IMG/VR virus record: IMGVR_UViG_3300021964_000041
Coordinates: 15,466-79,465 of that record
Source: a virus
Reading direction: 5' to 3' (one strand)
DNA: 64,000 nt
Every line of letters begins with the position of its first letter. Within the stretch, counting starts at the first letter, position 1. The translations under genes were made by a program, and so were the position numbers. The notes under the pieces are model-generated. The model searched no databases and had not been told where the DNA came from. It saw only the letters and a list, made by a program, of their open reading frames with translations. This document shows positions 1 through 63,600 of the stretch, one piece after another.

Positions 1-3000
1 GATAAAACTAATTCAATTTCTTTTGTAGTGGCACCGCTACCAAGACTACCAATTTTTAATGCCCAGTTTTCATTAATGCTTAGGTCTGTACTAGTTCCGT
101 CAATGGTCAAACGATTTAGTTTTTGTAATGCATTTTCTGTACCTTTTTCTTTAATAAAGCCAGTGTAAAACTTATACTGTGCAATATCGTCTCTTATAAG
201 ATTGTCAAGGTATAATCGTTTCTGATATCCTAATAGATGTTGACTTAGTTCAGTTGTTTGCTGATCAAAGTTTTCGCTTTCTAGTGCATAAAAATCTTCA
301 TACGAACTTGCTTTATAATCTAGGTTAGGTAATAATTCTGCAACAGGCTTGTCACCTATAAACACCCAATCGCTAAAATTAAATGTTTTTGTTGCAGGTA
401 AAAATTTACTTGCACTATAATACTTGCTCTTAAATCTTACAACATCACCAAGATTGTAATCACGTCCTTGAACGTAATCTTCTACTACTGCTTCGTCAAA
501 TACAAATCCAGGACTAACATAATCACCGTCCCACTCGCTTGTTTTAAATCCAACTAACTTGATACGTTTTTGTCTGTAACCTGCTTCTTGGTCATATATC
601 ACATCGCCGAATTGACTCTTATCATCAAATACTACAATGTGTTCCCACTGTACTAGATTTAATACAGCAAAGAAAATTCCTTTTTGTGTTCCTTTTGTAG
701 AAAGTAAAAACTTACCATTGCCTCTAACAATGCTTAGAGACTCTTTTTCTAATGGTGCCCCATTAGCACTTAAAATACTATATTCATAAAAACTGTTAAG
801 GACACTGTCTACAGTTGCATACTTGTATTCAAACTCTAAATTGTTTGCAAAAGGACTTAGTGCAATAACACTACCTTCTGCCCAATTTTGTGTTGTCCAG
901 TACAAAAATTCTTTTGCACTTAGATCCCAGTCTTGTATTGATAATGTTTCTCTTTGATACTTGTCAAAAACAAAACCTTGTTCTTTCAACCAGTGTTCAT
1001 AACCAAGAATTACATCATATACTTCTTGTGCTCTTGCATATACAGTTCCATAACTGACTTCGGTTACTTTGTTTTCGAATGATCTTGCTTTAGCAACTTC
1101 TGCTCCGCCAGTTATAGGCAATTCACCTAAAGATGTAAACTTATCATTGTCAAATGTTTCTGTACTTGTATGATTTGTTTTTACTCTAAAGTATTTTCCG
1201 CCAAATTCTACAATTTGCTTTTCACCGTAAAATTTTTCTGAACTCCAAATAACAAACTTTGCTTCTGTACCGCCTACATTGATCCCAATATCATTCTGTC
1301 CATGCTTTGGCTTATAGATATTAAACCACGGACGTAGTGTATCATAACCTCTAATTAAAAATCCTTTGGTTGTTTTTTCAACAATCATACCACTTATTCT
1401 TACACTGTTAATAGGGTTACTTTTTCTTAGTGTAAGTTGATAGTTTTCGCTAGGAAGGAAAACACTGTTGTCAGCAGTATTAGGATTAGAACTTTCTGCT
1501 AATACTCTTAATCTATTTTTGTTTGCAAAGCCGCCTAGTTTATAAGTTAAGTTACTTGATGTATTTCTCAATGTATCATAAAATGTTTCTTTAACGTCTT
1601 TCGAAAAACTCTTGAGGTATTCAACCATAGGTACATGGTACCCTAGTCCTAAGAATCTCTTATTGCTAAACAGCAAGTCTTTAATTTTTGCTTCTTTTAG
1701 ATTGAAAATCTTTCCTGTATCAGCATAAACAACATTTCCACTAGCAGTAATTTGATTTTGATTAGTATCAAACTGACTACCAAAGTATTGTGCAGGTTTT
1801 GTTAGTGCTACTGCATTCTGTAATGCAAAAGGATACCAACTAGATTTTCTCCATGAAGTTTCTGCCGGACCTTCGTCTCCGTACTTCCAATCATTTTTAA
1901 TTTCTGTAACAAATATTGCTTTAACAATATTAATTTTACTAGGATCTATTAAATCACCGTATTCATCAACTGGTAAATTTTTAGATAACCCGAGTCTTGC
2001 AAAGTCTGAATATATTTTATTACCACTCGGATCTCTTACCAACCCTCTTTCAATGTCGTCCCAAAGAATTTTGTTTCCACTAGTGTAAGGTGCTTGGCCA
2101 TAAACTTCGTCCCACCATGTAGGTTTAATTGTAATACCCAACATTTCCCATGGATGTGTATGAGGTCTATCAGTATCAAAGTATGATTTGTAAATTGCTC
2201 TCCAATAACCAGGTAAACGCTGATCATCAACACTGATCATTGTGTTAAAGTTATAAGAAAACGGATTAGCGTCTACTGTAACATTGTTTGTTTCATAATC
2301 AATATCAAACAAACTCTTCCAATAACCAAAATCTGTTCTTAATACTTTGTTAAACTCGTTAGCGGTAAAAGTATTTGTTCTATATTTTCCAGGAACCTGT
2401 TTTAAAATATCAAAAACGTCTCTATTATATTTTACTTTAAGGTTATTATAGATACGCTTTTCTAATTCTAAGATTAATTCATCACGTTCGTCATCAAACG
2501 CTTTTGTAATACTACCGTCGTGTCCTTGAATTACTTTTGTTGCTGTTAGATAACTGTTGTCTACAAATATTTCAGGAACAAATGCAGGATATAAACCAAG
2601 TTTAGTTGGAGTATGAGGGATAACCGAACCAGTAGTATCGTAATCGTTAACTTTGATTATGTCGCCAACTGATAATGTTTTTTTAATTGTAACAGTATTG
2701 TCTACAGCATCAAACTCATAGTCTGTATCGAGATATAACTGTACATCATTCAAGTACACATACACTGCACGGTCGCTTACTTTAGTTGTATCAAACGCAT
2801 TGTTAATTGCAAATACATTTTGCGTTCCATTTTTTACTTCAAACTGTAAGCGTTCAACTTTTTTACCAAAGCCTGCCATGTCTGAATAAAAGTACGGTGC
2901 TTCGCTTGACTTATTAATACTTAATTCATATAAAATTTTATCCACATCAGAAGCAATATTTTCACTTCTTTCAATTTTTCCTGCTTTTTCAATAAACTGA

Positions 3001-5522
3001 TCTTTAAAGAAGTTATAATCTCTACCTGTCTTACGCATAGAGTTAACAAAATTTAAATCTTCTTGAATTAAGAAAAGTATTGCAGGTAAAACACTGCCTT
3101 TGTGCTTAACATATCTACTACCATCTAGGTGAATATTGTACACATCTCTAGCATTATTAGGTCCTACCGACTTTCCTATAATGTTTGTATTAGATTGAAA
3201 TATAGTTTTAAAGTGATCACTAACACTGCCAAGTGTAAATGTACGCAAATCGTTATTTTCACCATTGTTGGTTAGATTGATCGGTGGTTCATAAAACCCG
3301 TTGTCATTAGGTTTTTGATCAGTAAGAACTTTTAGTGTTACTCTTGTGCCACCTTCAATTGGTGTTTTAAATTTTAACTGATAAGATGCTCTATTTTTGT
3401 CAATAATTTTTTCAAAATCAGTTGTTTCCTTATAGGTAACACCGTTGTATTCAGCAATAATATCTAAATCATACTTGTAAGGTTCTTTTATACAATTAAC
3501 AGCAACAGTATCTGCTGTTTGTGCTAGATCAAACACCTGCAAAATTCTCTGTCTTGTAACTTTATCTTTTACAAGTTGCCAGCCACTATAATATTTTTCG
3601 TCATTATAATCATAAACTAACCCACTGGCAGTATCAACAGTTGTCAATATATTATTTTCTTGGTATGTAAACTCGCTATCGTCCCAATTGAATTCAAATG
3701 TAATATCACCTACATTGTTGATATTTTGATAACTGATTGGAAACCCTAGTACAGGATCGTTTGCTCCTACACCACGCTTATAACTTGCAATAGCATTACC
3801 TTGGAAGTTAGATGAAAAGTAATTTGTTGCGTTTGAAAAACTGTTTGCACTACTATCAAACAAGTCAAACAAAGGACTTTGATTTAATTCTGTTTTAACT
3901 TGTGCTTTAACCCACTCTGTACCATTGTAATAATATGACACACCTTGGTTTACTGCACCGTCTGTGGCAACAACACTGTCGTTGACCAAAGGTGTGTATT
4001 TTTCAATTAGATGTAAACGTTCTTGTCCTTCATATTCTACAAAATCAACTTCGTATACTTTACCTTTTACTGTGATATCTGGATCAGCATTAAAAATTAC
4101 ACGCATACCTTTACGTAAAAGAACTTCATCTACGTGGTATCCAAATGACCCTTCAACATCACTCATAGCATCTTTAGTATCTGTATCAATTAAATCAACA
4201 TTACCAATACCTTTTTCACCAAAGTTAAACAGTTTAAGATTAGGGTTGAATTCTAAAATAGGTCTTACTGCTCTATTGTTTTCATCAAGTACAGGAGATG
4301 TATTATTATACTCTGCACTTAGTTCAATTACATCTTTATGAACCCATCTATTATATCTACTCCACGGGTTTTTATCTTTACTTGCACGATTAATTGTAAT
4401 ATATTCTGCTGTTAAAGGACTATTCTCAGTATCATCATATGGTGTATCATCAAATGGGTCAACGTCAAATTCGTATTCAGCATTTTTAGCATATAGTTCA
4501 GGTGTATCTAATTCTGTTTCGTCAATTAGCGTAATTCGATCGCCTACACCTTCAACATACCAATTCTTTTCTCTATACTTTGTAGGTAAAACATCGCCTA
4601 CAAAATTAATTTTCATTCCGTTTGTAAGTTTTACACCATTAGCACTTGTAAAGTTTGCTTTTCCAATAATTTCTTGTTCAACATCAATTGTTAAATCTTG
4701 AGAAGTGTCACGGATTTCTAAGGTACCTTGCATCGATTGATGATACTGACAAGCATAAAATAATCTATCAGGTGCATTTACAGGAACAGTAAATGTAATA
4801 GTTCCACTTTCTGCACCATTATTTTCAACACCGTCATTGTATTGATCGCCTATGCCGATTGTATTTGCTGTTTTGATGTAGAAAGGATGCCCTGTTGCAT
4901 TAACTTTAAACTTGTATGTGCCACCTCTATATAATACAACTGTTGGATTTTCACTAAATCCGTTTGGTGTAAACACAAAACTATTTTGTCCGCTATTTGT
5001 AACTGAATATTCACTTTCAGTATTGCCAGGATTTCCTGAAACACTTACTGGATCTGGACCTTGTGAAAGCCAATAGTACTGTCTATAATTTACAAACTTG
5101 TCAAAATCAAACATCGGATTCCAAGCAAAATATTCTGCTTGAAATAGTTTGTCGTGGTTATCTGTTATGCCGCCAAAAAAATCTAATTGATTAATTAGGT
5201 CGTCATATGTACCTGTCCACTTGTTTGAATTATCAACAGGATTTTTAGTTACTGCTGATGGAAGAAAGTTATATCTTCTTCTATTTGCAGTTGGTTCTGA
5301 AATGTAAACGTCTTTAGGTGATGCATTTTCAGTATTCCTAGCACCAACAAATCCATTTAGCCTATCTAAATTACCTTTGCTGATTAAACTGTCAACTGTT
5401 GCACCAAAAAACTTTCTATTTGCTTCTGTACGAAAGTACATAGGTAACAAGTCGGCACTGTTTCTCAACTTGTCTTTGTTTTCTATGTTTACTGGTGTAC
5501 CTTGTTTGTCGCTATATGCCAT
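1..5522 (-). CDS. Giant baseplate/virion structural protein (>1,840 aa, 3' end outside window)
   Basis: Absent from the ORF track because it has no stop in the window. ATG at 5522 after AGGA; reads MAYSDKQGTPVNIENKDKLRNSADLLPMYFRTEANRKFFGATVDSL. The same frame is open at the window edge (ENWALKIGSLGSGATTKEIELVL). Lies directly downstream of the gp6-like gene and contains a cupredoxin-like module near 4715-5010. Confidence 0.8.
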   Translation of the reverse strand, partial: MAYSDKQGTPVNIENKDKLRNSADLLPMYFRTEANRKFFGATVDSLISKGNLDRLNGFVGARNTENASPKDVYISEPTANRRRYNFLPSAVTKNPVDNSNKWTGTYDDLINQLDFFGGITDNHDKLFQAEYFAWNPMFDFDKFVNYRQYYWLSQGPDPVSVSGNPGNTESEYSVTNSGQNSFVFTPNGFSENPTVVLYRGGTYKFKVNATGHPFYIKTANTIGIGDQYNDGVENNGAESGTITFTVPVNAPDRLFYACQYHQSMQGTLEIRDTSQDLTIDVEQEIIGKANFTSANGVKLTNGMKINFVGDVLPTKYREKNWYVEGVGDRITLIDETELDTPELYAKNAEYEFDVDPFDDTPYDDTENSPLTAEYITINRASKDKNPWSRYNRWVHKDVIELSAEYNNTSPVLDENNRAVRPILEFNPNLKLFNFGEKGIGNVDLIDTDTKDAMSDVEGSFGYHVDEVLLRKGMRVIFNADPDITVKGKVYEVDFVEYEGQERLHLIEKYTPLVNDSVVATDGAVNQGVSYYYNGTEWVKAQVKTELNQSPLFDLFDSSANSFSNATNYFSSNFQGNAIASYKRGVGANDPVLGFPISYQNINNVGDITFEFNWDDSEFTYQENNILTTVDTASGLVYDYNDEKYYSGWQLVKDKVTRQRILQVFDLAQTADTVAVNCIKEPYKYDLDIIAEYNGVTYKETTDFEKIIDKNRASYQLKFKTPIEGGTRVTLKVLTDQKPNDNGFYEPPINLTNNGENNDLRTFTLGSVSDHFKTIFQSNTNIIGKSVGPNNARDVYNIHLDGSRYVKHKGSVLPAILFLIQEDLNFVNSMRKTGRDYNFFKDQFIEKAGKIERSENIASDVDKILYELSINKSSEAPYFYSDMAGFGKKVERLQFEVKNGTQNVFAINNAFDTTKVSDRAVYVYLNDVQLYLDTDYEFDAVDNTVTIKKTLSVGDIIKVNDYDTTGSVIPHTPTKLGLYPAFVPEIFVDNSYLTATKVIQGHDGSITKAFDDERDELILELEKRIYNNLKVKYNRDVFDILKQVPGKYRTNTFTANEFNKVLRTDFGYWKSLFDIDYETNNVTVDANPFSYNFNTMISVDDQRLPGYWRAIYKSYFDTDRPHTHPWEMLGITIKPTWWDEVYGQAPYTSGNKILWDDIERGLVRDPSGNKIYSDFARLGLSKNLPVDEYGDLIDPSKINIVKAIFVTEIKNDWKYGDEGPAETSWRKSSWYPFALQNAVALTKPAQYFGSQFDTNQNQITASGNVVYADTGKIFNLKEAKIKDLLFSNKRFLGLGYHVPMVEYLKSFSKDVKETFYDTLRNTSSNLTYKLGGFANKNRLRVLAESSNPNTADNSVFLPSENYQLTLRKSNPINSVRISGMIVEKTTKGFLIRGYDTLRPWFNIYKPKHGQNDIGINVGGTEAKFVIWSSEKFYGEKQIVEFGGKYFRVKTNHTSTETFDNDKFTSLGELPITGGAEVAKARSFENKVTEVSYGTVYARAQEVYDVILGYEHWLKEQGFVFDKYQRETLSIQDWDLSAKEFLYWTTQNWAEGSVIALSPFANNLEFEYKYATVDSVLNSFYEYSILSANGAPLEKESLSIVRGNGKFLLSTKGTQKGIFFAVLNLVQWEHIVVFDDKSQFGDVIYDQEAGYRQKRIKLVGFKTSEWDGDYVSPGFVFDEAVVEDYVQGRDYNLGDVVRFKSKYYSASKFLPATKTFNFSDWVFIGDKPVAELLPNLDYKASSYEDFYALESENFDQQTTELSQHLLGYQKRLYLDNLIRDDIAQYKFYTGFIKEKGTENALQKLNRLTIDGTSTDLSINENWALKIGSLGSGATTKEIELVL

Positions 5523-16802: not shown

Positions 16803-17825
16803 ATGACACAATTATTTAAAAAGGCCGCTGTGTTTACAGATATTCACTTTGGTCTTAAATCGAATTCAAAAATACACAATGACGATTGCGAACGTTTTGT
16901 AGATTGGTACATCGAAACAGCCAAAGCAAATGGCTGTGATGTGGGCCTATTTACAGGCGACTGGCATCATAATAGAAGTGCATTAAATTTAACCACAATG
17001 GACGCTAGTTTACGTTCACTGGAAAAACTAGGTGCGGCTTTTGATAAGTTTTACTTCTTCCCAGGCAATCATGATTTGTATTACAAAGACAAAAGAGAAA
17101 TTCATTCTGTAGTATTTGGTAAACACGTACCAGGTGTTACTGTGGTTAATGAACCAATGATTATAGACAATGTTGGTTTAGTTCCATGGTTGGTTGGAGA
17201 AGAGTGGAAAAATGTTGTAAAAATGAAGTGCAAATATATGTTTGGTCACTTTGAACTTCCGCACTTTAAAATGAATGCTATGGTAGAAATGCCAGATACA
17301 GGTGAAGTTAAAGCCTCAGACTTTAAGAATCAAGAACTAGTTTTTAGTGGTCATTTCCATAAACGTCAAACACAAAATAATATCCATTACATCGGCAACG
17401 CCTTTCCACACAATTATGCTGATGCTTGGGATGACGAACGTGGTATGATGATACTTGAATGGGACGGTCAGCCAAAATATGTTGATTGGCCAGACTGTCC
17501 TAAGTATCGAACTGTAAAACTTTCACAGTTACTAGATAATACAGAAAGCATTTTATCGCCTAATAATTTATATCTACGTGTTACACTTGATATTGATATT
17601 AGTTACGAAGAAGCAAATTTTATTAAAGAAAACTTTACTGCACAATATGATGTACGTGAAATTAGTTTGCTACCAAACACAGAAGAAAATGACGAAGCAC
17701 TAACACTTGAACGTGGAGAAATTGAATTTGAAAGTGTAGATCAAATTGTTACTGATCAAATTACAAAAATACAAAGCGAGCAGTACAGACCAAATACACT
17801 TTTAGATATCTATAGGAATTTATAA
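16803..17825 (+). CDS. Recombination endonuclease subunit, gp47/SbcD/Mre11-like metallophosphoesterase
   Basis: Motifs FTDIHFG, TGDWHH, GNHD, FGHFE, SGHFH. Confidence 0.92.
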   Translation: MTQLFKKAAVFTDIHFGLKSNSKIHNDDCERFVDWYIETAKANGCDVGLFTGDWHHNRSALNLTTMDASLRSLEKLGAAFDKFYFFPGNHDLYYKDKREIHSVVFGKHVPGVTVVNEPMIIDNVGLVPWLVGEEWKNVVKMKCKYMFGHFELPHFKMNAMVEMPDTGEVKASDFKNQELVFSGHFHKRQTQNNIHYIGNAFPHNYADAWDDERGMMILEWDGQPKYVDWPDCPKYRTVKLSQLLDNTESILSPNNLYLRVTLDIDISYEEANFIKENFTAQYDVREISLLPNTEENDEALTLERGEIEFESVDQIVTDQITKIQSEQYRPNTLLDIYRNL

Positions 17826-19606
17826 TGTTTAAAATTAAAACTTTAACAGTTAAAAACTTCATGAGTGTTGGAAACACAACACAAGCAGTTGATTTTTATA
17901 AAAACTTCTTGACCCTTGTGCTAGGTGAAAATATGGACCTAGGCGGTGATGATGCAGGGTCACGTAATGGTACAGGTAAGACTACTATTATTAATGCACT
18001 AAGTTATGCACTGTACGGTGAAGCACTTACAAAAATTCGTAAAGAAAATCTAATTAACAAAACCAACGGCAAAGACATGTTGGTTACTGTTGAATTTGAA
18101 AAAGAAGGACGTTCATATCGTATTGAGCGTGGTAGAAGAAAAAACGTATTGAAATTTTATATCAACGATGTTGATTCGACTGCTGATGATATAGATGAAT
18201 CACAAGGCGATTCACGTAAAACGCAGGAAGAAATAGAACGACTTTTGAACATGAGTCATGGTATGTTCAAACACTTGGTGGCACTTAATACCTATACAGA
18301 GCCTTTCCTATCTCTCAGTAATAACGCACAACGCGAAATTATTGAACAGTTGTTAGGTATCACCATTCTGTCTGAAAAAGCGGAGAACCTCAAGGAGCAA
18401 CAGAAACAGGTCCGTGACAATATTACTGAAGAAGATGCTCGCATTAGAGGAGTCGAAAGTGCAAACAAGGCTGTACAGGAATCCATTAATGCCCTTGAAA
18501 TTAAAAGCAAGGCTTGGGACGCTTCACAGGCAGAAGAAATTTCACGACTGAGCAAAGCAATTATGCAACTGATTCAAGTCGATATTGATGCTGAAATTGA
18601 TGCATTTACAAAGTTAAGTGATTGGGAAACTAAAAATAACGAACTGTCAAACTTGCAAAAAGAAAAAGCAAGTTTAGAAGCATCACTACAACGTGCAGAA
18701 AGACAGCACAAAAAATATGAACAAGAATTAAAAGACATCAAAAGCAAAAAATGTTTTACTTGCGGTCAAGAATTACATGACGAATCACATGCGGATTTGT
18801 TAAAAGAAAAAGAAAATGATCATAAAGAAAGCGAAACATACATACAAGGCGTTGCACTGCAACTTGAAGAATGTTTAGGAAAAATAGATGCTATTGGTGA
18901 TCTAGATAGCAAACCGCAAACATTTTATGAAACTGCGGAAGAAGCATACAATCATAAAAACAATCTTGCAACACTAGAAGATAGAAAAAAAGAAAAAGAA
19001 GAAGAAACTAATCCTTACACAGAACAAATGAATGAATTGCAAGATACAGCAATTAAAGAGATTTCGTGGGATTATATGAACGATCTGCAGAACATGAAAG
19101 CACACATGGACTTTTTATATAAACTGCTTACAAGCAAAGATTCATTTATTCGTAAACGTATTATTGATCAAAACCTTGCTGTATTAAATAAGCGTCTAGC
19201 GTACTATTTAGAAAAGACAGGATTGCCACATCAAGTACGATTCCAGAACGATTTAACGGTAGAAATTACAGAACTAGGACGCGACTTAGACTTTGATAAC
19301 CTCAGTAGAGGAGAACGAAATAGACTCATCTTAAGCATGAGTTGGTCGTTCCGTGATGTTTGGGAAAGTCTATATCAAAGCATTAATTTGCTGTTTATTG
19401 ATGAACTTATTGATAGTGGTATGGATGCCGCTGGTGTAGAAAGTTCTATAGGAATATTGAAAAAAATGGCTCGTGAACGTAACAAAAACATCTATCTTAT
19501 TTCACACAAAGATGAACTAAGTTCAAGGGTCAACAACATATTAAAAGTAGTCAAAGAAAACGGCTTTACAAGTTATGCTACTGATACTGAGGTAGTAGAT
19601 GTCTAA
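17825..19606 (+). CDS. Recombination ATPase subunit, gp46/SbcC/Rad50-like
   Basis: KNFMSVG; Walker A RNGTGKT; coiled coil with zinc-hook CFTC; signature LSRGE; Walker B LLFIDE; ISH. Confidence 0.93.
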   Translation: MFKIKTLTVKNFMSVGNTTQAVDFYKNFLTLVLGENMDLGGDDAGSRNGTGKTTIINALSYALYGEALTKIRKENLINKTNGKDMLVTVEFEKEGRSYRIERGRRKNVLKFYINDVDSTADDIDESQGDSRKTQEEIERLLNMSHGMFKHLVALNTYTEPFLSLSNNAQREIIEQLLGITILSEKAENLKEQQKQVRDNITEEDARIRGVESANKAVQESINALEIKSKAWDASQAEEISRLSKAIMQLIQVDIDAEIDAFTKLSDWETKNNELSNLQKEKASLEASLQRAERQHKKYEQELKDIKSKKCFTCGQELHDESHADLLKEKENDHKESETYIQGVALQLEECLGKIDAIGDLDSKPQTFYETAEEAYNHKNNLATLEDRKKEKEEETNPYTEQMNELQDTAIKEISWDYMNDLQNMKAHMDFLYKLLTSKDSFIRKRIIDQNLAVLNKRLAYYLEKTGLPHQVRFQNDLTVEITELGRDLDFDNLSRGERNRLILSMSWSFRDVWESLYQSINLLFIDELIDSGMDAAGVESSIGILKKMARERNKNIYLISHKDELSSRVNNILKVVKENGFTSYATDTEVVDV

Positions 19607-19829
19607 AGGCCCAACAACACATGAACTATTAATCCAAGCAATTATGGATTACTATAACATGAATGAACGTTGGGAAGCAAAAGGCTTTGATGAAAACGGT
19701 CGTAAAGTACGTTCTATACTAAGCGATATTAGAAGGCTATGCACACAAAGGCGATACGAAGTACAGGATAGGCGCAAGGATCTTAAGGCAAAAAAGAAGC
19801 AAAATCAGAATCAAGACACTGAAAATTAG
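19599..19829 (+). CDS. Small basic protein, Hc1-like phage family (tentative)
   Basis: 76 aa, Lys/Arg-rich helical (GRKVRSILSDIRRLCTQRRYEVQDRRK); overlaps the gp46 stop. Confidence 0.5.
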   Translation: MSKGPTTHELLIQAIMDYYNMNERWEAKGFDENGRKVRSILSDIRRLCTQRRYEVQDRRKDLKAKKKQNQNQDTEN

Positions 19830-19847
19830 GCATCGGTAAGTATCACT

Positions 19848-20279
19848 ATGGAGTGGACTTATCAGGGCAAAAAAGTACAAGAACTTCCCGCAGATTGCGA
19901 AGGATTTGTATACCTGATTACTAACACTACCAACAATCGCAAGTACGTAGGCAAAAAACTCGCAAAATTCAAAACCACTAAGCCACCTCTCAAAGGCAAG
20001 AAAAACAAACGACGAGGCACAAAGGAATCAGATTGGAGAGACTATTGGGGATCTTCAGATCATCTAAATGCTGATGTTAAAAAATTAGGGCCAGAAAACT
20101 TCACAAGAGAAATTTTATACTATTGCAACAGCAGAGGCATAATGAGTTACCTTGAGGCTAGAGAACAATTTGAACGCCGTGTGTTAGAGACGGATGAGTA
20201 TTACAATGGAATTATTAATGTTAGAGTTGGCAGTTCAAAAATTCTCAAAGAAGCACTAGAAAATCTAAAGGCAATATAA
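19848..20279 (+). CDS. Short GIY-YIG (Seg-like) endonuclease domain protein
   Basis: GFVYLITNTTNNRKYVGKK (GIY-YIG), YWGSS, FTREIL, LEAREQF (Glu), YYNG (Asn); 143 aa; preceded by TAAGTA-N5-ATG. Confidence 0.8.
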   Translation: MEWTYQGKKVQELPADCEGFVYLITNTTNNRKYVGKKLAKFKTTKPPLKGKKNKRRGTKESDWRDYWGSSDHLNADVKKLGPENFTREILYYCNSRGIMSYLEAREQFERRVLETDEYYNGIINVRVGSSKILKEALENLKAI

Positions 20280-20280
20280 C

Positions 20281-20701
20281 AGCACATAAGGTTGGCGGGC
20301 CAGTTTGCAAATACCGCTGAGTAAAAGGTCCCCTGAGAAGGACACTCGTACACATTGATCGACCCCCCATGGGAGGAAGCCAACAAACAAATTGGGCTCA
20401 CTGGTTAATGTAGATTGAATGCTGTCAGTCGAAAACACATGTGTTTGAAAAAACTCCACGCAACGGAACGAGGCGGGAGGTAGCGTAGAAGACCGCGAAG
20501 CGGTTTGCGGTAGCAAAGCGATTTGTAAAGCAGTTTTTTACGTGATGTCGACGTAGGTAGGGGAAAGGTCAGAGCCCCACAAACAGGTGTATAAACAAAA
20601 TACCTACTTCCAAGTCTTGGCTGTGACGAACTCACATGATGTTCAAGATTAGATGGAACCATAAACAGGTTCCGTCTGACTGAAACAATCTACATGATGC
20701 T
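20281..20701 (+). ncRNA. Candidate large structured non-coding RNA (family unassigned)
   Basis: Intergenic, ~47% GC by hand count against AT-rich flanks. Many nested helices, including 10-bp long-range 20408-17/20686-95 and 6-bp 20425-30/20678-83. G-U pairs favour the + strand. Confidence 0.65.
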
Positions 20702-20791
20702 AAATTGCTTCGCAATTATCTTTCATATATAAAGGAATAAATGTGTTCGAGCGATAGCGATAACACAGATGAACGTAGTTCATCTACTAAC

Positions 20792-20986
20792 TTAATAAAT
20801 TGCTTTTCCTGTTTTTTTAGATAGTTCAGAATTCTCTTTGATTAATTCGAATATGTATTTGCGTTGATCCCATGTAAGGTTGTAAGCATCGTTAAGATTG
20901 ATACCACCTCTCATGTACCATAATATTTCCATTAGATTCTTTTCGATGGCTTCTGACTCGTCTTCTAGTTTTTTGACGATCTCCAT
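20792..20986 (-). CDS. gp51-like baseplate hub/tail assembly chaperone C-terminal part (probably expressed by -1 frameshift from the upstream ORF)
   Basis: LMEILWYMRGGINLNDAYNLTWDQRKYIFELIKEN; no clear SD; the frame stays open upstream to the slippery site at 21025-21031. Confidence 0.65.
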   Translation of the reverse strand: MEIVKKLEDESEAIEKNLMEILWYMRGGINLNDAYNLTWDQRKYIFELIKENSELSKKTGKAIY

Positions 20987-21018
20987 TACTTGGTCAGAGT
21001 CCGTGCATTGGCTTACGG

Positions 21019-21870
21019 TTATACGAAAAAATTTACGTTATTCAAAAATACTGGAACACTTATAGTAGTTGGTGCTCCTTGATCCACTAAAGGTTGTGGC
21101 ACTGTGACTTTTTGTACAGGAATATCAAACTTGCTTCGATTGCTTATTAAAAAGTCTCTAATAGCATTAAACAGTTCGCGATCTGAATCTGCTAGGAACT
21201 GCGTGATATTTGTAGGATTTGTTTCTTCACCTTCAGGTGTTGTTATTTTAACTATTTGTTTTGCTACAACATCAATGTTATTCATGCTGGCTTTATCGAG
21301 TATTTCCTGCATTACTTGTTTTCTTTTATCTTGAGGTAGTGTTTTATCGCTTAGTATATTGATAAAACGCTGTGTTTCAAACGTTTCGATATCAAAAAAG
21401 TTTTGATGCTTTAGTTTAAGTGGTAATAGATGAAAAGTAAGTTCATCATATGTAAATGTATCCTGCCATACTTGCGATTTTATACCGTCTAGCACTTCTG
21501 GAAGGCTTATTTCTACTTTTAGTTCTTCGTCCTCTACTTTTGGAACTTTAACATCCATTTCCAGTTTTTCGCCGGTGGTTGCAATTCTAATAGCAATTAG
21601 TATTGCGTCCATATCAATGCTTGGAATATCCCATGGATCATCAATTAAAGGCACACAACTTTTAATAACTTCCGCTACTGCGTCTCCATTCATCAGTGCG
21701 TCAGGAGTTCTAAAGATCAATTCATCCTTAGCGGTCATGCTTAAAATAGGAATTTCACCCGTGCCTGAGCGTTCACAAGGATTATTCTTGTAAAATTTAC
21801 CACCGCTAGGCAAAGTAAGGTAGATTTTTGGTGTTCTACTGTACTTGCTTAATATATTGTTTTGGTCCAT
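21019..21870 (-). CDS. Baseplate hub assembly protein, T4 gp26-like
   Basis: PKIYLTLPSGG...MTAKDEL...IPSIDMDAILIAIRIATTGE and C-terminal NFFV resemble the gp26 family. Confidence 0.75.
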   Translation of the reverse strand: MDQNNILSKYSRTPKIYLTLPSGGKFYKNNPCERSGTGEIPILSMTAKDELIFRTPDALMNGDAVAEVIKSCVPLIDDPWDIPSIDMDAILIAIRIATTGEKLEMDVKVPKVEDEELKVEISLPEVLDGIKSQVWQDTFTYDELTFHLLPLKLKHQNFFDIETFETQRFINILSDKTLPQDKRKQVMQEILDKASMNNIDVVAKQIVKITTPEGEETNPTNITQFLADSDRELFNAIRDFLISNRSKFDIPVQKVTVPQPLVDQGAPTTISVPVFLNNVNFFV

Positions 21871-31152: not shown

Positions 31153-31230
31153 GTCAGATATGTTCCATTCGAAGTAATGGACTTATGCAGTACTAAACCC
31201 ACTGCGTACCGGCTAGAACCCGGATCGGAC
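31153..31230 (+). ncRNA. Cloverleaf-like four-way-junction 5' leader (candidate cis-regulatory RNA)
   Basis: Closing stem GTCAGAT/ATCGGAC encloses TCCATT/AATGGA, TATGCAGT/ACTGCGTA and CCGG/CCGG arms; begins 5 nt downstream of the TAAATA box (31143-48). Confidence 0.5.
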
Positions 31231-31251
31231 TTCTAAAAAAGGAGAAAACAA

Positions 31252-31698
31252 ATGGGTAGACCACTTAATAAAAGATACTTCGGCGAACCTACTGCGGGTG
31301 GAAATGAAATCAAAGTTGATTTTCACAACGGTACAAGTGTAGTTGAAGGACACATTGTAAGACAAAAAGGTAGCAAGAAGTTTGTAGTATCAGAAATTGG
31401 TGCTTCAGACACCGAATATACTTGCACATTAACAACTGGTAAACTAATGTCAGCACTAGCGGCTGGTGAAATGGGTATCACGTTTAAAATGGACGATGCA
31501 GAAACTTACCAAGTTTCTAAAATTTCAGGTCGTAAAGCAACACTAGTTGCTCCAGATGCTACAGGTACTAACGCATATGACGGAAAGTCAGTGCCATGGA
31601 ACTTTAACACATCTGTTGTAGACGGTGCGGCACAAGTTGAAGAGGCTGGTGACGACGATGTTGCTGGCGTTGATGACGACGATTTCGTTAACGCATAA
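31252..31698 (+). CDS. Putative virion structural protein
   Basis: Strong AAGGAG SD, own late box and own terminator; MGRPLNKRYFG...HIVRQKGSKKFVV. Confidence 0.6.
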   Translation: MGRPLNKRYFGEPTAGGNEIKVDFHNGTSVVEGHIVRQKGSKKFVVSEIGASDTEYTCTLTTGKLMSALAAGEMGITFKMDDAETYQVSKISGRKATLVAPDATGTNAYDGKSVPWNFNTSVVDGAAQVEEAGDDDVAGVDDDDFVNA

Positions 31699-60693: not shown

Positions 60694-60694
60694 T

Positions 60695-63600
60695 ATGAGT
60701 CAAGAGAAAGAATATATTGTAGGACTAAAAAAAGGAATAGACTTTAAAAAATTTGACAACGAAATGATTATTGCAACAGGCAATGGTTATATTCCCCAAC
60801 GTTCTGTTACAGTAGCAAACCAAAGACCGCTTTCACAAAGACTTACTCATTACATGCTTACTGACGAAGAAGCAGAAAATTTAAGACACGATAACAGGGT
60901 TGAGTGTGTTGAGATTCCACCGGATCAGCGTGAAGATATAATGATTACACCTCTTGCTAGTCAACCTAGTAACTTTAGTAAAACTACTTCTGATTCAGGA
61001 CCTTATGTTAATTGGGGATTGAGAAGAGTAAATGAAAAATCAAATGTATACGGCGGATCAACTATTGTATCAGGTGACTACAACTATACACTAGATGGAA
61101 GTGGTATTGACTTTGTTGTACATGATAGCGGAATACAAAAAGATCATCCAGAGTTTCAAGATGCTAACGGTGTTAGCCGAGTAAAAGAAATAAATTGGTA
61201 TACAGAAAGTGGACTAACTGGTACACAGAATGCTAATCATTACAGAGATACAGATGGTCATGGTACTCACGTTGCTGGAATTGCCGCAGGTAAAACATAT
61301 GGTTGGGCAAAGAATGCTGACATATATGCACTAAAAGTTAGCGGACTAGAAGGTACAGGTGATAGTGGTACAGGTATTGGTATTTCAGATTGTTTTGATG
61401 TTTTGAAAGAATGGCATCGTAGAAAAGTTTCAGGTACATTTACACCTACTGATGCAAGTTATACTCCTGCAACCGGAATATTGATTTTGACATTAGGAAA
61501 TCATAATTTTGAATCAGGTGAAAAAATAAGAATAGCACCCGGTAGTTTAACATTTACTTGTGGTAAAGATAATTTTGCAAGTAATCACAGTTATCCAAGA
61601 AGTTCAGGCGCTCCAAATGCGGCTGGAACTGATCCATTTTACAATAAAGATATTACAATTACCGGAGTAACTAGCACAACTATCACAGTTAATATTGGTA
61701 TTAGTTCAGATACTACTGAACATAGATTTGTAAGTGCATTAACAGGTGCAGTAGAAGCAACAGGAGATAAAAGATTATTAACAAAGCGTCCAACTGTGGT
61801 AAACATGAGTTGGGGATATACTACATTTTTTGTAGGAATCAGTGGCGGCGTTTATAGAGGCACTTCATGGACTGGTAGTACGGCTAGAACAGACTACGGT
61901 ATGGTAGGTAGAGGTGGTAGACATCCTGTTCGTATAAGTAGTGTTGATATTGATATGGAAGAGTTAATTGACGCAGGAGTACATGTTACAGTAAGTGCAG
62001 GTAATTATAAACAAAAAATTGATGTAGAAGGCGGAGACGATTACGATAATCTTTACTATCAATATGGTCTTACAAGATATTATCATCGAGGCGGTTCTCC
62101 GTTCAGTGCTAACGCACACATAGTTGGAAATGTTGATAGTGTAGTCCATACTTCTAGCGGAACTATTTTAGAACAAAAATCAGACAGTTCAGAAACAGGT
62201 CCAGGAGTAACTGTGTGGGCGCCTGGTACAGATATAATGAGTGCTGTGTCGAACACAAACAATAAAAACGGCCAATCATATTATTTAGATAGTGACTTTA
62301 AACAATGTAATATTAGCGGAACAAGTATGGCGGCTCCTCAAGTAGCAGGATTAATTGCATTGTACTTACAAATTAATCCAGATGCAAGTGTAAAAGAAGT
62401 TAAGGATTGGATTAGTGATAATGCAGAATTAGATGATTTGTATCAACCTGGTGACGGAACGTCTTATATAAATGATCGATCATTGCTAGGAAGTTCACCA
62501 AAGTTTTTATTCAATCCTTATAATTCAAAATTTGGTTTAACTTTATATAGTTCTAGATCAGGCGAGTCTAGTGTTAGTTTAAGTGGTCCTACTTACACAA
62601 TGACTGCAAGTGCCGCGGTTGTAAATGAAGGTAGCAGTGTTGTTATTACATTATCAACAACAAATGTTGCAGATAGTACAAGCATACCGTATACAATTAC
62701 AGGCATTGGTTCTAGTGATCTAGTAAGTGGATCACTTACAGGAACTTTTATTGTTGGAACTAGAGATACTATTACATTAGAATTTGCAGAAGATAGTGTA
62801 ACAGAAGGTAACGAAACTGCAACAATAAGTTTAGATAACGGTCAAGCAAGTGTATCAGTACTTGTAAACGACAGCAGTGTTGCGACACCAACATACTCAT
62901 TAACAAGCAATGTTAGTGAAGTCGATGAAGGTGGTACAGTTGTTATAACACTAGCAACAACAAACGTTGTAACAGGAACAAATTTACCTTATACTGTTAC
63001 AGGCATTAATGCCGCAGATTTAAGCAGTGGTTCTTTAACTGGAATTTTTGTAGTTGGTGCTACAAATACTGCTACACTAGAACTTGCTAATGATTTAACC
63101 ACTGAGGGTGAAGAAACATTAACACTTGCACTAGATAACGGTCTTGCTGATGTTGCAGTTACAGTTAACGATACTAGTGAAAATCCTCCAACACCTACTT
63201 ATTCATTACAAACAAGTACTGCATCTGTAGACGAAGGTGGCACATTTACGATTACATTAAACACAACAAATCTAGCAAACGGAGTAAGTGTTCCTTATAC
63301 TATTACAGGCGTAAACAGTGCTGATATCGGTGGTGCTAGTCTGACAGGAAACTTTGTTGTCGGAACAACACCATCAAGAACTTTTAATGTTACAGCAGAT
63401 TTAACAACTGAAGGAACCGAAACGTTTGCACTTGCACTTGATAACGGTGACGCAAGTATTAATGTAACTATTAGCGATACGAGTTTAACACCAAGTGGAT
63501 CAAGTTATAATTTAACAAGCAATGTTAGTGAAGTCGATGAAGGCGAAACACTTACATTTACGCTTACAGGTACTAACATTCAAGATGGTACAACAGTTGG

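What the first reader, a model, noticed from the sequence alone, without database searches (positions are those of the whole stretch)
19837..20701. Minimal GIY-YIG nuclease followed directly by a ~420-nt ornate structured RNA: candidate nuclease-RNA system
Seen: the largest intergenic gap in an otherwise packed window begins 1-2 nt after the nuclease stop and is ~47% GC. Helices found by eye: ATGTAGATTG/CAATCTACAT (20408-17/20686-95), TCAGTC/GACTGA (20425-30/20678-83), GTTGGC/GCCAAC (20291-96/20379-84), GGCCAGT/ACTGGTT (20298-304/20400-06, crossing the previous helix, so a possible pseudoknot), GAGT-GTCC/GGAC-ACTC (20319-47), CTCC/GGAG (20454-79), GCGTAGAAGA/TTTTTTACGT (20483-92/20534-43), GTAGGTA/TACCTAC (20553-59/20601-07), GGGG/CCCC (20560-78), TCTTG-TGTGA/TCACA-CAAGA (20615-48), AGATGGAACC/GGTTCCGTCT (20651-77). 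G-U wobbles fit the + strand, the same strand as the nuclease. The protein is only a catalytic domain (143 aa) with a very basic insert (KKLAKFKTTKPPLKGKKNKRRGTK) and no C-terminal DNA-recognition domain. Known: Seg homing endonucleases normally carry such a domain; HEARO/omegaRNA-IscB are nuclease-plus-RNA pairs; GOLLD and ROOL are large phage-associated RNAs. Inference: a co-transcribed ribonucleoprotein, possibly RNA-guided or RNA-scaffolded, or an independent new large phage ncRNA.
Basis: partly seen in the sequence, partly recalled or inferred. Interest (0 to 1): 0.88.

Follow-up and report, generated by a model that had tools for sequence, protein, structure and literature searches.

The report
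Twin-box phage RNA behind nuclease gene
The gene-free stretch after a small nuclease gene of this uncultured marine T4-like phage encodes a real, large, knotted non-coding RNA shared by hundreds of related phages; nothing shows that it guides the nuclease, and its job is still unknown.

Summary
Window 20279-20699 (+) encodes a real ~420-nt structured RNA, followed by three more hairpins up to 20784. On 65 diverse homologues, 94.5% of cells pair against 86.7% in shuffles. 38 of 82 pairs show compensatory changes. New features: a pseudoknot that starts at the last base of the nuclease stop codon; two 7-nt boxes (20634-40, 20692-98) that co-vary as identical copies; and AGGCA repeats upstream of the RNA, inside the nuclease ORF.

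The RNA-guided nuclease reading is not supported. The RNA also occurs with its own sigma-70 promoter and no nuclease nearby. In one sister phage it follows an unrelated PD-(D/E)XK nuclease. Near-identical nucleases sit next to three different RNA scaffolds or none. The boxes take only about ten forms.

This window matches no Rfam family. A sister RNA type at the same locus has the Polynucleobacter-1 motif (RF01718, function unknown) as its 5' domain.

Best reading: an autonomous phage ncRNA that acts in trans; the mechanism is inferred, not shown. This scan found the same family before on other genomes, with the same verdict.

The parts
19786..20273 (+). Leader with seven AGGCA repeats (19786, 19828, 19949, 19994, 20015, 20135, 20269), five of them inside the nuclease ORF
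   Evidence: Seven copies in 488 nt against 0.8 per kb in the window. RNA-linked nuclease ORFs carry a mean of 3.68 AGGCA against 0.71 in RNA-less ones, and GGC makes up 54% against 28% of Gly codons. The same repeats fill the non-coding leaders of promoter-driven copies and the unrelated PDDEXK ORF of L144.
19848..20279 (+). 143-aa SegE-type GIY-YIG nuclease gene (phrog_447 family)
   Evidence: Pfam PF19835, E 3.7e-35. PHROG 447 matches at full length. Catalytic-type residues Y22, Y33, G35, E88 and N120 are conserved. The AF2 model has pLDDT 89 and its best PDB fold is the I-TevI catalytic domain.
20279..20430 (+). 5' domain of the RNA. Pseudoknot 20279-84 with 20420-25 (loop of hairpin 20413-17/20426-30). 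Helices 20294-98/20314-18, 20319-21/20345-47, 20328-31/20340-43, 20352-61/20402-11, 20363-66/20371-75 and 20378-81/20395-98
   Evidence: RNAalifold and pair counts on A1. The pseudoknot helix shows CG43/AU19/GC3, CG57/UA8 and AU45/GC19, with 0 broken in 65 sequences. Helix 20352-61/20402-11 has six pairs with double changes.
20452..20479 (+). Hairpin with a covarying stem and a near-invariant loop (A)GGAACGA(G/A)
   Evidence: CG45/GC13, UA28/CG19. The loop residues GGAACGA are invariant in A1.
20483..20543 (+). Variable-length peripheral hairpin (0-120 nt in relatives; the short forms are capped by GNRA tetraloops)
   Evidence: Alignments.
20545..20610 (+). Core: invariant GAUGUCGAC, helix 20553-58/20602-07, helix 20560-63/20575-78 with conserved loop GAAAGGUCAGAG
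   Evidence: helices 13 and 14 (UA51/GC8/AU3; UA63/CG2).
20608..20641 (+). Twin module 1: UUCC-AA-GUCUU-GGCUGUGACGAACUC plus box X1 (ACAUGAU, 20634-40), held in a loop closed by 20614-18/20645-49
20651..20677 (+). 10-bp hairpin AGAUGGAACC/GGUUCCGUCU between the two modules
   Evidence: helix 16 (98.6% paired).
20669..20699 (+). Twin module 2: an invariant 25-nt tract (A1 invariant columns 408-432, window 20669-93) plus box X2 (ACAUGAU, 20692-98)
   Evidence: Invariant columns in A1. The 22-mer CCGTCTGACTGAAACAATCTAC within it has an exact match in at least 119 IMG/VR contigs. X2 is identical to X1 in all but one locus over the six core positions.
20703..20717 (+). UUCG-capped hairpin after box 2 (possible 3' end or terminator)
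   Evidence: Covarying stem AAUUGC/GCAAUU to AAUUAC/GUAAUU to AAAUGC/GCAUUU.
20742..20784 (+). Two further covarying hairpins (20742-65 with a GNRA-type mini-hairpin; 20766-84) at the point where + and - strand genes converge
   Evidence: Compensatory changes GTGTT/AACAC to ATGTT/AACAT to GTATT/AATAC, and GATGAAC/GTTCATC to AGTGAAC/GTTCACT. Conserved even in phages that carry other RNA types.

Best explanation
Window 20279-20699 (+), with its AGGCA-repeat leader and 3' hairpins, is a gene for an autonomous structured non-coding RNA, here called type A of a 'twin-box' RNA superfamily. It is carried by uncultured marine and estuarine phages.

In this phage it is most likely transcribed as the 3' part of the nuclease mRNA. 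In other phages it has its own sigma-70 promoter.

A pseudoknotted multi-helix scaffold holds a nearly invariant 3' domain. That domain presents two quasi-duplicated ~32-nt modules, each ending in the same unpaired 7-nt box. I infer that the RNA works in trans as a scaffold or decoy. The two identical boxes, and probably the AGGCA repeats, would bind two copies, or two sites, of one host or phage partner, either nucleic acid or protein.

The neighbouring small nuclease is a separate module and does not depend on this RNA.

Shown: the RNA is real, its fold, its distribution, its separability from the nuclease, the box identity, and the AGGCA enrichment. Inferred: action in trans, what the boxes and repeats do, and the exact transcript ends.
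For: Structure:
- 82 pairs in 16 helices; 94.5% paired against 86.7% in shuffles (0/500).
- 38 pairs with double-sided changes against 24.1 (0/500).
- Slid controls give 32-40% paired.
- The + strand folds better than shuffles, z = -3.15.

Distribution:
- blastn and nhmmer find it in about 170 of 278 fetched IMG/VR loci; 101 sequences are unique.
- An invariant 22-mer is present in at least 119 viral contigs.
- In 185,579 species genomes it occurs only in two phage-like contigs of one MAG.

Autonomy:
- L173, L269, L163/L275, L191, L273 and L249 carry the RNA behind TTGACA-N17-TATAAT-type promoters in a podovirus-like context. There the GIY-YIG gene is downstream, 1.5 kb away or absent.
- L144 has a PD-(D/E)XK nuclease in place of GIY-YIG.
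- The Melnitz nuclease, 79% identical, has no RNA downstream.
- Nuclease clades interleave with RNA types A, B, C and none.

Boxes:
- Every variable position of X1 has the same position of X2 as its best covarying partner.
- Ten box variants occur across three scaffold types, always identical within a molecule.
- No cis complement was found.

Leader: AGGCA enrichment tracks 'upstream of the RNA', not the protein.

Presence in RNA libraries: contigs of four metatranscriptome runs lie on 19084-20763. Single contigs bridge the nuclease ORF and the RNA 5' domain.
Against: - No partner for the boxes or the AGGCA repeats has been identified.
- The long invariant single-stranded tract would equally suit a ribozyme core.
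- The RNA is adjacent to a nuclease gene in nearly all T4-like loci. It is adjacent again, in the reverse order, in a second phage group. A purely independent RNA does not explain this.
- The RNA fold begins inside the nuclease stop codon, so translation and folding must interfere on the same transcript.
- The metatranscriptome evidence consists of assembled contigs only. It shows neither strand, nor ends, nor that the material was RNA rather than carried-over DNA.
Confidence: 0.5

Rival explanations
1. Nuclease-RNA ribonucleoprotein. The small GIY-YIG protein lacks a DNA-recognition domain, so it binds the RNA, perhaps through the conserved 3' twin modules. The two identical boxes would aim two nuclease monomers at a nucleic-acid target.
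For: The adjacency is nearly universal in T4-like loci and recurs in the reverse order in a podovirus-like group. The protein is a bare catalytic domain with a basic beta-hairpin insert. The RNA starts at the stop codon. Two boxes would suit an enzyme that nicks one strand at a time (inference).
Against: - The RNA occurs without any GIY-YIG gene in the locus (L269, L273, L249), and with a PD-(D/E)XK nuclease instead (L144).
- Nucleases 79-84% identical occur without the RNA.
- Scaffold type and nuclease clade do not co-diverge.
- The boxes take only about ten forms with fixed positions, unlike programmable guides.
- The box complement is not enriched or specially placed in the phage's own 79-kb contig.
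- The 143-aa architecture is the norm for a large phage family, phrog_447. Relatives turn up in 795 isolate phage records, while none of the three RNA types has a match in that same collection.
Confidence: 0.1
2. Homing or mobile-nuclease neighbourhood. The GIY-YIG and PD-(D/E)XK genes are free-standing selfish endonucleases. They have lodged in the leader of a highly conserved RNA gene, which would make an ideal homing target, and they spread it by co-conversion. The RNA has its own unrelated function.
For: - The nuclease belongs to the Seg family and its best structural match is I-TevI.
- Two unrelated nuclease folds occupy the same site.
- Copies sit on either side of the RNA in different phage groups.
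- Phages with 99%-identical gp46 and p76 have only 90%-identical nuclease, while the best nuclease matches lie in phages with 86% gp46. This places a recombination breakpoint before the nuclease.
- AGGCA leader repeats are kept inside the inserted ORFs.
Against: - No nuclease-free 'empty site' was seen among about 200 T4-like loci.
- The protein has no DNA-binding domain.
- Nuclease divergence (55-92%) is of the same order as that of gp46 (59-99%), as expected for a resident gene.
- The L144 replacement is annotated as a RusA-like resolvase. Together with the position next to gp46/gp47, this fits a recombination role rather than homing.
Confidence: 0.2
3. Ribozyme. The invariant single-stranded core is a catalytic centre. 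The two identical boxes mark two equivalent processing (cleavage or ligation) sites, one internal and one at the 3' end.
For: There is a 25-nt invariant tract, further invariant junction residues, and peripheral GNRA hairpins of variable length, as in large ribozymes. The boxes are preceded by similar contexts, AACUC and AAUCU.
Against: No hit to any ribozyme or intron family in Rfam even at E<=10. There are no flanking exons. RNA-library contigs run through both boxes (records 16, 24 and 32), although contigs cannot exclude partial processing.
Confidence: 0.08
4. Cis-acting element of the nuclease operon. A structured 3' UTR or terminator that stabilises or regulates the upstream early mRNA, or a DNA-level element (origin, iterons) at the point where transcription converges.
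For: It lies at the junction of convergent + and - strand genes. Hairpins continue to 20784. The direct repeats resemble iterons. The RNA fold overlaps the stop codon.
Against: The G-U pattern and covariation are strand-specific and typical of RNA. The same RNA sits at the start of early operons behind its own promoter in other phages. A ~420-nt pseudoknotted scaffold with an invariant core is far more than a terminator needs. Box spacing varies from 49 to 67 nt.
Confidence: 0.07

Closest known systems
Polynucleobacter-1 RNA motif (Rfam RF01718; Weinberg et al. 2010, PMC2864571, Additional file 1)
   Same: It is the 5' domain of the sister 'type B' RNAs, which occupy the same locus (directly after the same GIY-YIG gene family) in related T4-like phages: L134 118 bits, L146 87 bits. 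Those RNAs end in the same twin-box module and UUCG hairpin as this window's RNA. Its function is unknown. The original authors already noted that it lies downstream of one gene family with a cyanophage homologue.
   Different: The window's RNA does not match RF01718 even at E<=10. A type-A 5'-domain HMM finds nothing in type B or C RNAs. RF01718 covers 141 nt and does not include the twin-box 3' domain, the pseudoknot described here, or the AGGCA leader.
GOLLD and ROOL RNAs (large ornate RNAs of phages and prophages; Rfam; cryo-EM in PMC12286853)
   Same: Large, intricately folded, phage-borne non-coding RNAs without a known function. Variable peripheral hairpins surround a conserved core.
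   Different: No sequence or structure match. This RNA is smaller (~420-500 nt). It is not next to tRNA genes. Oligomerisation was not tested.
OMEGA/HEARO-type guide RNAs (IscB and TnpB omega RNAs)
   Same: A structured RNA encoded next to a small nuclease gene on the same strand.
   Different: The nuclease has another fold (GIY-YIG or PD-(D/E)XK). There are no transposon ends. There is no hypervariable guide; the boxes have about ten forms and come as two identical copies. The RNA occurs without the nuclease and the nuclease without the RNA.
Free-standing Seg homing endonucleases of T4, such as SegB in the tRNA gene cluster (established knowledge, not tested here)
   Same: A GIY-YIG gene of the Seg family sits beside highly conserved RNA genes. 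Different nuclease families are found at one locus.
   Different: This protein has no DNA-binding domain. No empty sites were seen. Homing was not tested.

Membership tests
Polynucleobacter-1 RNA (RF01718) | Score at or above the Rfam gathering threshold (37 bits) against the covariance model | tested here: not met
   No match in window 19800-21000 even at E<=10, nor in the whole window at gathering. The sister loci L134 and L146 do match (118 and 87 bits).
Polynucleobacter-1 RNA (RF01718) | Genomic position downstream of the GOS11034 / P-SSM2_218-like gene family | tested here: inconclusive
   The window's RNA lies downstream of a GIY-YIG gene of the same family as the one that precedes the RF01718 hits in L134 and L146. 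I did not verify that this family is identical to GOS11034.
Twin-box RNA superfamily (defined in this scan, not in the literature) | 3' domain ...CUC-X ... hairpin ... (A/U)UCU-X with identical 7-nt X, followed by a UUCG-type hairpin | tested here: met
   Window X1 20634-40 equals X2 20692-98, and the hairpin is at 20703-17. The same layout occurs in types A, B and C.
Group I / group II introns, RNase P, tmRNA, known small ribozymes, GOLLD, ROOL, HEARO | Match to the Rfam covariance model. For introns, also flanking exons. For tmRNA, a tRNA-like domain and a tag ORF | tested here: not met
   cmscan at gathering on the window and at E<=10 on 19800-21000 gave nothing in the tract. ARAGORN found no tRNA or tmRNA. 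No ORF is interrupted.
RNA-guided nuclease systems (OMEGA / CRISPR-like) | Obligate co-occurrence and co-divergence of the nuclease and its RNA scaffold | tested here: not met
   RNA without nuclease, nuclease without RNA, an unrelated nuclease at the same site, and interleaved clades.
RNA-guided nuclease systems (OMEGA / CRISPR-like) | A hypervariable guide segment adjoining a conserved scaffold | tested here: not met
   Only about ten box variants. Position 6 is always A. The variants are shared between scaffold types.
RNA-guided nuclease systems (OMEGA / CRISPR-like) | Physical binding of RNA and nuclease, and RNA-dependent cleavage | not testable with these tools
   Needs biochemistry.
GIY-YIG nucleases, SegE-type (PF19835 / phrog_447) | Profile match, conserved GIY and YIG tyrosines, Glu and Asn, and the GIY-YIG fold | tested here: met
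   PF19835 E 3.7e-35. phrog_447 E 2e-38. Y22, Y33, G35, E88 and N120 are conserved. The AF2 model's best PDB hit is the I-TevI catalytic domain, probability 0.97 but E 0.098.
Homing endonuclease (functional class) | DNA-recognition domain; presence/absence polymorphism; cleavage of nuclease-free alleles | tested here: inconclusive
   There is no extra domain (143 aa). No empty site was seen among about 200 loci. The locus is mosaic and two nuclease folds occur at it. Cleavage is not testable here.

The most novel reading that the evidence does not exclude
The two boxes are a paired recognition device. They are identical in sequence and kept identical through at least ten sequence states in three different scaffolds. 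They would read a short sequence in a trans nucleic acid. One candidate is a tRNA anticodon loop: positions 3-5 of the box read AUG, AUA, AGA, AUC or GUG and are always followed by A, as in T-box specifier loops. Another is the two half-sites of a DNA or RNA target, positioning two copies of a bare-domain nuclease. Either would be a new kind of RNA-based targeting or tRNA-handling device in phages.
Probability: 0.1. Interest if true: 0.9.

Novelty: new variant of a known kind. Interest (0 to 1): 0.62.

Why it matters
Large, highly conserved structured RNAs with no known function are rare, and past examples have often turned out to have new biochemistry. This one is abundant in uncultured marine and estuarine phages.

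It shows three unusual features:
- A 25-nt core that is invariant across phages whose flanking gp46 protein is only about 60% identical.
- Two boxes that evolve in lockstep as identical rather than complementary copies.
- A short repeat, AGGCA, written into the synonymous sites of whichever gene lies upstream.

It also links the orphan Rfam motif Polynucleobacter-1 to a wider, modular RNA superfamily, and it gives that motif a defined genomic home. Identifying the partner of the boxes would tell what an apparently common phage function is.

Tried and rejected
- Rfam at gathering and at E<=10: no family in the tract. ARAGORN: no tRNA or tmRNA. [quoted passage not shown]
- blastn of RNA types A, B and C against 50,697 isolate phage records: no match.
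- Search for a cis complement of the box (at least 6 of 7 positions, G-U allowed, from 560 nt upstream to 120 nt downstream) in ten lineages with different boxes: no consistent site.
- Box complement in the phage's own 79-kb contig: chance-level numbers, none at gene starts.
- Translational bypass or a small ORF between the boxes: a 15-codon ATG...TGA frame exists in this window only and is lost in relatives whose boxes lack ATG. Box spacings are not multiples of three.
- K-turn or box C/D reading of AUGAUG plus CUGA: several box variants lack GA.
- Palindromic box-box pairing: works only for CAUG and ACGU variants.
- Sigma-70 promoter and intrinsic terminator scans of 19400-21100: at chance level.
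- Type-A 5'-domain HMM against types B and C: no hit. Homology of the 5' domains therefore rests only on a similar layout seen by eye.
- PDB sequence search with the nuclease: nothing.
- Metatranscriptome contigs leave 20764-21500 uncovered in all four runs. Contig depth cannot rank RNA against mRNA.
- The two genome-contig hits sit in a Marinimicrobia MAG. They are phage-like contigs, so they are not evidence for a host.
- MI analysis on the MAFFT alignment was noisy in the variable hairpin. The hairpin 20452-79 is partly misaligned in A1, which lowers its paired percentage.
Full report
**1. What is there**

The window is part of a 79-kb contig of a T4-like phage. The local gene order is:
- gp47-like, 16803-17825
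- gp46-like, 17825-19606
- a 76-aa basic ORF, 19599-19829
- a 143-aa GIY-YIG ORF, 19848-20279
- a 512-nt tract without a credible ORF
- the minus-strand genes 20792-20986 and 21019-21870, the latter baseplate-like

The tract has 46.9% G+C against 36.8% for the window. As RNA, the + strand folds better than shuffled controls (z = -3.15); the - strand does not (z = -1.78). Rfam 15 finds nothing in the tract, either at gathering thresholds or at E<=10. ARAGORN finds no tRNA or tmRNA.

**2. The RNA is real**

I fetched IMG/VR loci in three ways: through the nuclease, through gp46, and, independently of any protein, through an invariant 22-mer of the tract (at least 119 contigs). About 170 of the 278 loci carry a recognisable homologue, and 101 sequences are distinct.

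I made a 65-sequence alignment (A1) and wrote a 16-helix, 82-pair structure from RNAalifold and inspection. The counts are:
- 94.5% of cells paired, against 86.7% in column shuffles (0 of 500 reach it)
- 38 pairs with changes on both sides, against 24.1 (0 of 500)
- covariation score 0.249, against 0.119
- sliding the 3' partners by 1-3 columns drops pairing to 32-40% and the score to 0.035-0.072

Many conserved G-U pairs fix the strand as +.

**3.

Confirmed:
- 20319-47 (two nested helices)
- 20454-79
- 20553-58/20602-07
- 20560-63/20575-78
- 20651-60/20668-77
- the outer part of 20614-18/20645-49

The long hairpin 20483-543 is real but is a variable peripheral arm. Relatives shrink it to GNRA-capped mini-hairpins.

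Refuted: ATGTAGATTG/CAATCTACAT, TCAGTC/GACTGA, GTTGGC/GCCAAC and GGCCAGT/ACTGGTT. Their 5' strands pair elsewhere with strong covariation:
- 20352-61 with 20402-11 (UA35/CG30, AU34/GC30)
- 20413-17 with 20426-30
- 20294-98 with 20314-18
- 20378-81 with 20395-98

New: a pseudoknot between 20279-84 (ACAGCA, whose first base is the last A of the nuclease stop codon) and 20420-25, which is the loop of hairpin 20413-30. It shows CG43/AU19/GC3, CG57/UA8 and AU45/GC19, and no broken pair in 65 sequences.

Two possible closing helices cannot be tested because both strands are invariant: 20289-93/20687-91 and 20547-49/20678-80.

**4. Twin boxes**

The 3' domain holds two quasi-duplicated modules:
- 20608-41: UUCC..GUCU..GGCUG..GAACUC-ACAUGAUG
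- 20669-99: UUCC-GUCU-GACUG-AAACAAUCU-ACAUGAUG

Each variable position of box X1 (20634-40) has the same position of box X2 (20692-98) as its best covarying partner. Over about 150 loci the six core positions are identical in all but one.

Across all loci, ten box variants occur: ACAUGAA, ACAUGAU, AGAUAAU, ACAUAAA, ACAGAAA, ACGUGAA, GGAUAAU, ACAUCAA, GAAUAAU and GCAUAAU. Position 6 is always A. Spacing is 49-67 nt.

The boxes co-vary as identical copies, not as complements. No complementary segment exists in cis. None is specially placed in the phage contig. The most economical reading is that both boxes contact the same kind of partner in trans. This is inference.

**5. A modular superfamily**

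T4-like relatives that lack the type-A sequence still have a structured tract after the nuclease gene. It ends in the same layout: CUC-X, a hairpin, (A/U)UCU-X and a UUCG hairpin. Clustering gives three scaffold types: A with 90 distinct sequences, B with 20 and C with 19.

The 5' domain of type B is the Rfam family Polynucleobacter-1 (RF01718): L134 scores 118 bits and L146 scores 87 bits. I took this lead from earlier reports of this scan and checked it myself.

Weinberg et al. 2010 described that motif as an RNA of unknown function. They noted that it lies mostly downstream of one gene family with a cyanophage P-SSM2 homologue, and that it was absent from sequenced phages.

The window's RNA does not match RF01718. 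A type-A 5'-domain HMM finds nothing in types B or C. Two phage-like contigs binned in a Marinimicrobia MAG carry a hybrid with a type-C-like 5' end and a type-A core. This shows that domains are exchanged.

**6. Relation to the nuclease**

The protein is a bare GIY-YIG domain.
- It matches PF19835 and phrog_447 at full length.
- The tyrosines, Glu and Asn are conserved.
- The AF2 model is confident (pLDDT 89) and places a basic beta-hairpin insert at about residues 40-60.
- The best PDB fold is the I-TevI catalytic domain, at weak significance.

For a link:
- In nearly every T4-like locus with enough upstream DNA the order is gp46, p76, nuclease, RNA.
- In a podovirus-like group the RNA is followed by a 47-52% identical GIY-YIG gene (L163/L275, L191).

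Against a functional dependence:
- L173 has the nuclease 1.5 kb away. L269, L273 and L249 have none in the locus. All of these drive the RNA from a consensus sigma-70 promoter.
- L144 has a PD-(D/E)XK / RusA-like nuclease at the same place.
- Melnitz-like nucleases, 78-84% identical, have no RNA downstream.
- On the nuclease tree the RNA types and the RNA-less genes are interleaved. Well-supported branches force at least three or four switches for each RNA type (quick tree).

So nuclease and RNA are separable modules. Two unrelated nuclease folds at one site, and a breakpoint between p76 (99%) and the nuclease (90%) in the nearest relatives, fit either selfish nucleases parked beside a conserved RNA gene or interchangeable recombination nucleases next to gp46/gp47. 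The data do not decide between these.

**7. AGGCA leader**

Seven AGGCA lie in 19786-20273, about nine times the window's density. The reverse complement does not occur in the ORF.

| Measure | Nuclease ORFs followed by the RNA | ORFs not followed by the RNA | Test |
|---|---|---|---|
| Mean AGGCA per ORF | 3.68 | 0.71 | Mann-Whitney 2e-10 |
| GGC as share of Gly codons | 54% | 28% | Fisher 3e-12 |

These tests are not phylogenetically independent.

Nuclease genes placed downstream of the RNA have 0-1 copies. The non-coding leaders of promoter-driven RNAs have two to four (A/U)GGC(A/U) copies. The unrelated PDDEXK ORF of L144 has six. The last repeat sits at a fixed distance before the pseudoknot strand.

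The repeats therefore belong to the RNA element, whatever sequence they are embedded in. Their role is unknown.

**8. Expression**

Twenty-four metatranscriptome runs from 21 studies hold part of the stretch. Contigs of four of these runs (salt marsh and marine) lie on 19084-20763. Single contigs bridge the nuclease ORF and the RNA 5' domain. This is compatible with co-transcription. It proves neither strand, nor ends, nor RNA origin.

**9. Verdict**

This is a real, large, pseudoknotted phage ncRNA that is not in Rfam. It belongs to a modular superfamily whose sister type contains the orphan Polynucleobacter-1 motif. The RNA-guided-nuclease idea is not supported. Function is unknown. I favour a trans-acting scaffold or decoy that uses the twin boxes and the AGGCA repeats. 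The same family was reported earlier in this scan on other genomes with the same conclusion.

Noticed in passing
window 31164-31254 (+): Match to the Rfam family freshwater-2 RNA (RF02980): 73 bits against a gathering score of 49.9. It is the only Rfam hit in the window.
   Followed up: no
window 2234-3963, 60694-61638, 62150-63600: Stretches of 0.9-1.7 kb without any ORF of 55 aa or more in a crude ORF map. They could hold small early genes or further non-coding elements, so the studied tract is not obviously the largest gap.
   Followed up: no
L279:1-1000 and L280 (reverse strand) around 3600-4300: Two contigs (335 kb and 153 kb) binned in a Candidatus Neomarinimicrobiota MAG carry the phage locus gp46-p76-nuclease-RNA. 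Their RNA is a hybrid with a type-C-like 5' end and a type-A core. This is either mis-binned phage DNA or a hint at the host.
   Followed up: partly
L082-L086 versus window 17825-20279: Phages with 98-99% identical gp46 and 99% identical p76 have a nuclease only 90% identical. The best nuclease matches (92-94%) lie in phages with 86% gp46. This points to a recombination breakpoint between p76 and the nuclease gene.
   Followed up: partly
window 19599-19829 (+): The 76-aa basic protein before the nuclease has a sub-threshold Pfam hit to the C-terminal domain of phage G1 gp67 (E 0.009, 16.9 bits against a cut-off of 27). It diverges much faster than gp46.
   Followed up: no
window 20547-20552: The palindrome GUCGAC is nearly invariant in T4-like members but not in the podovirus-like ones. 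It could be a helix strand or a dimerisation site.
   Followed up: no
window 20567-20572 versus 20616-21 and 20676-81: The conserved hairpin loop GGUCAG is complementary to both twin modules (UUGGCU with wobbles, CUGACU perfectly). Likewise, GGAAC of the 20452-79 loop equals the 5' strand of hairpin 20651-77. These may be alternative pairings, but they cannot be tested because all partners are invariant.
   Followed up: partly
L144:6963-7493: In one sister phage the GIY-YIG gene is replaced by a PF24608 PDDEXK / phrog_244 'RusA-like resolvase' gene whose last 250 nt carry seven AGGC(A) repeats.
   Followed up: yes
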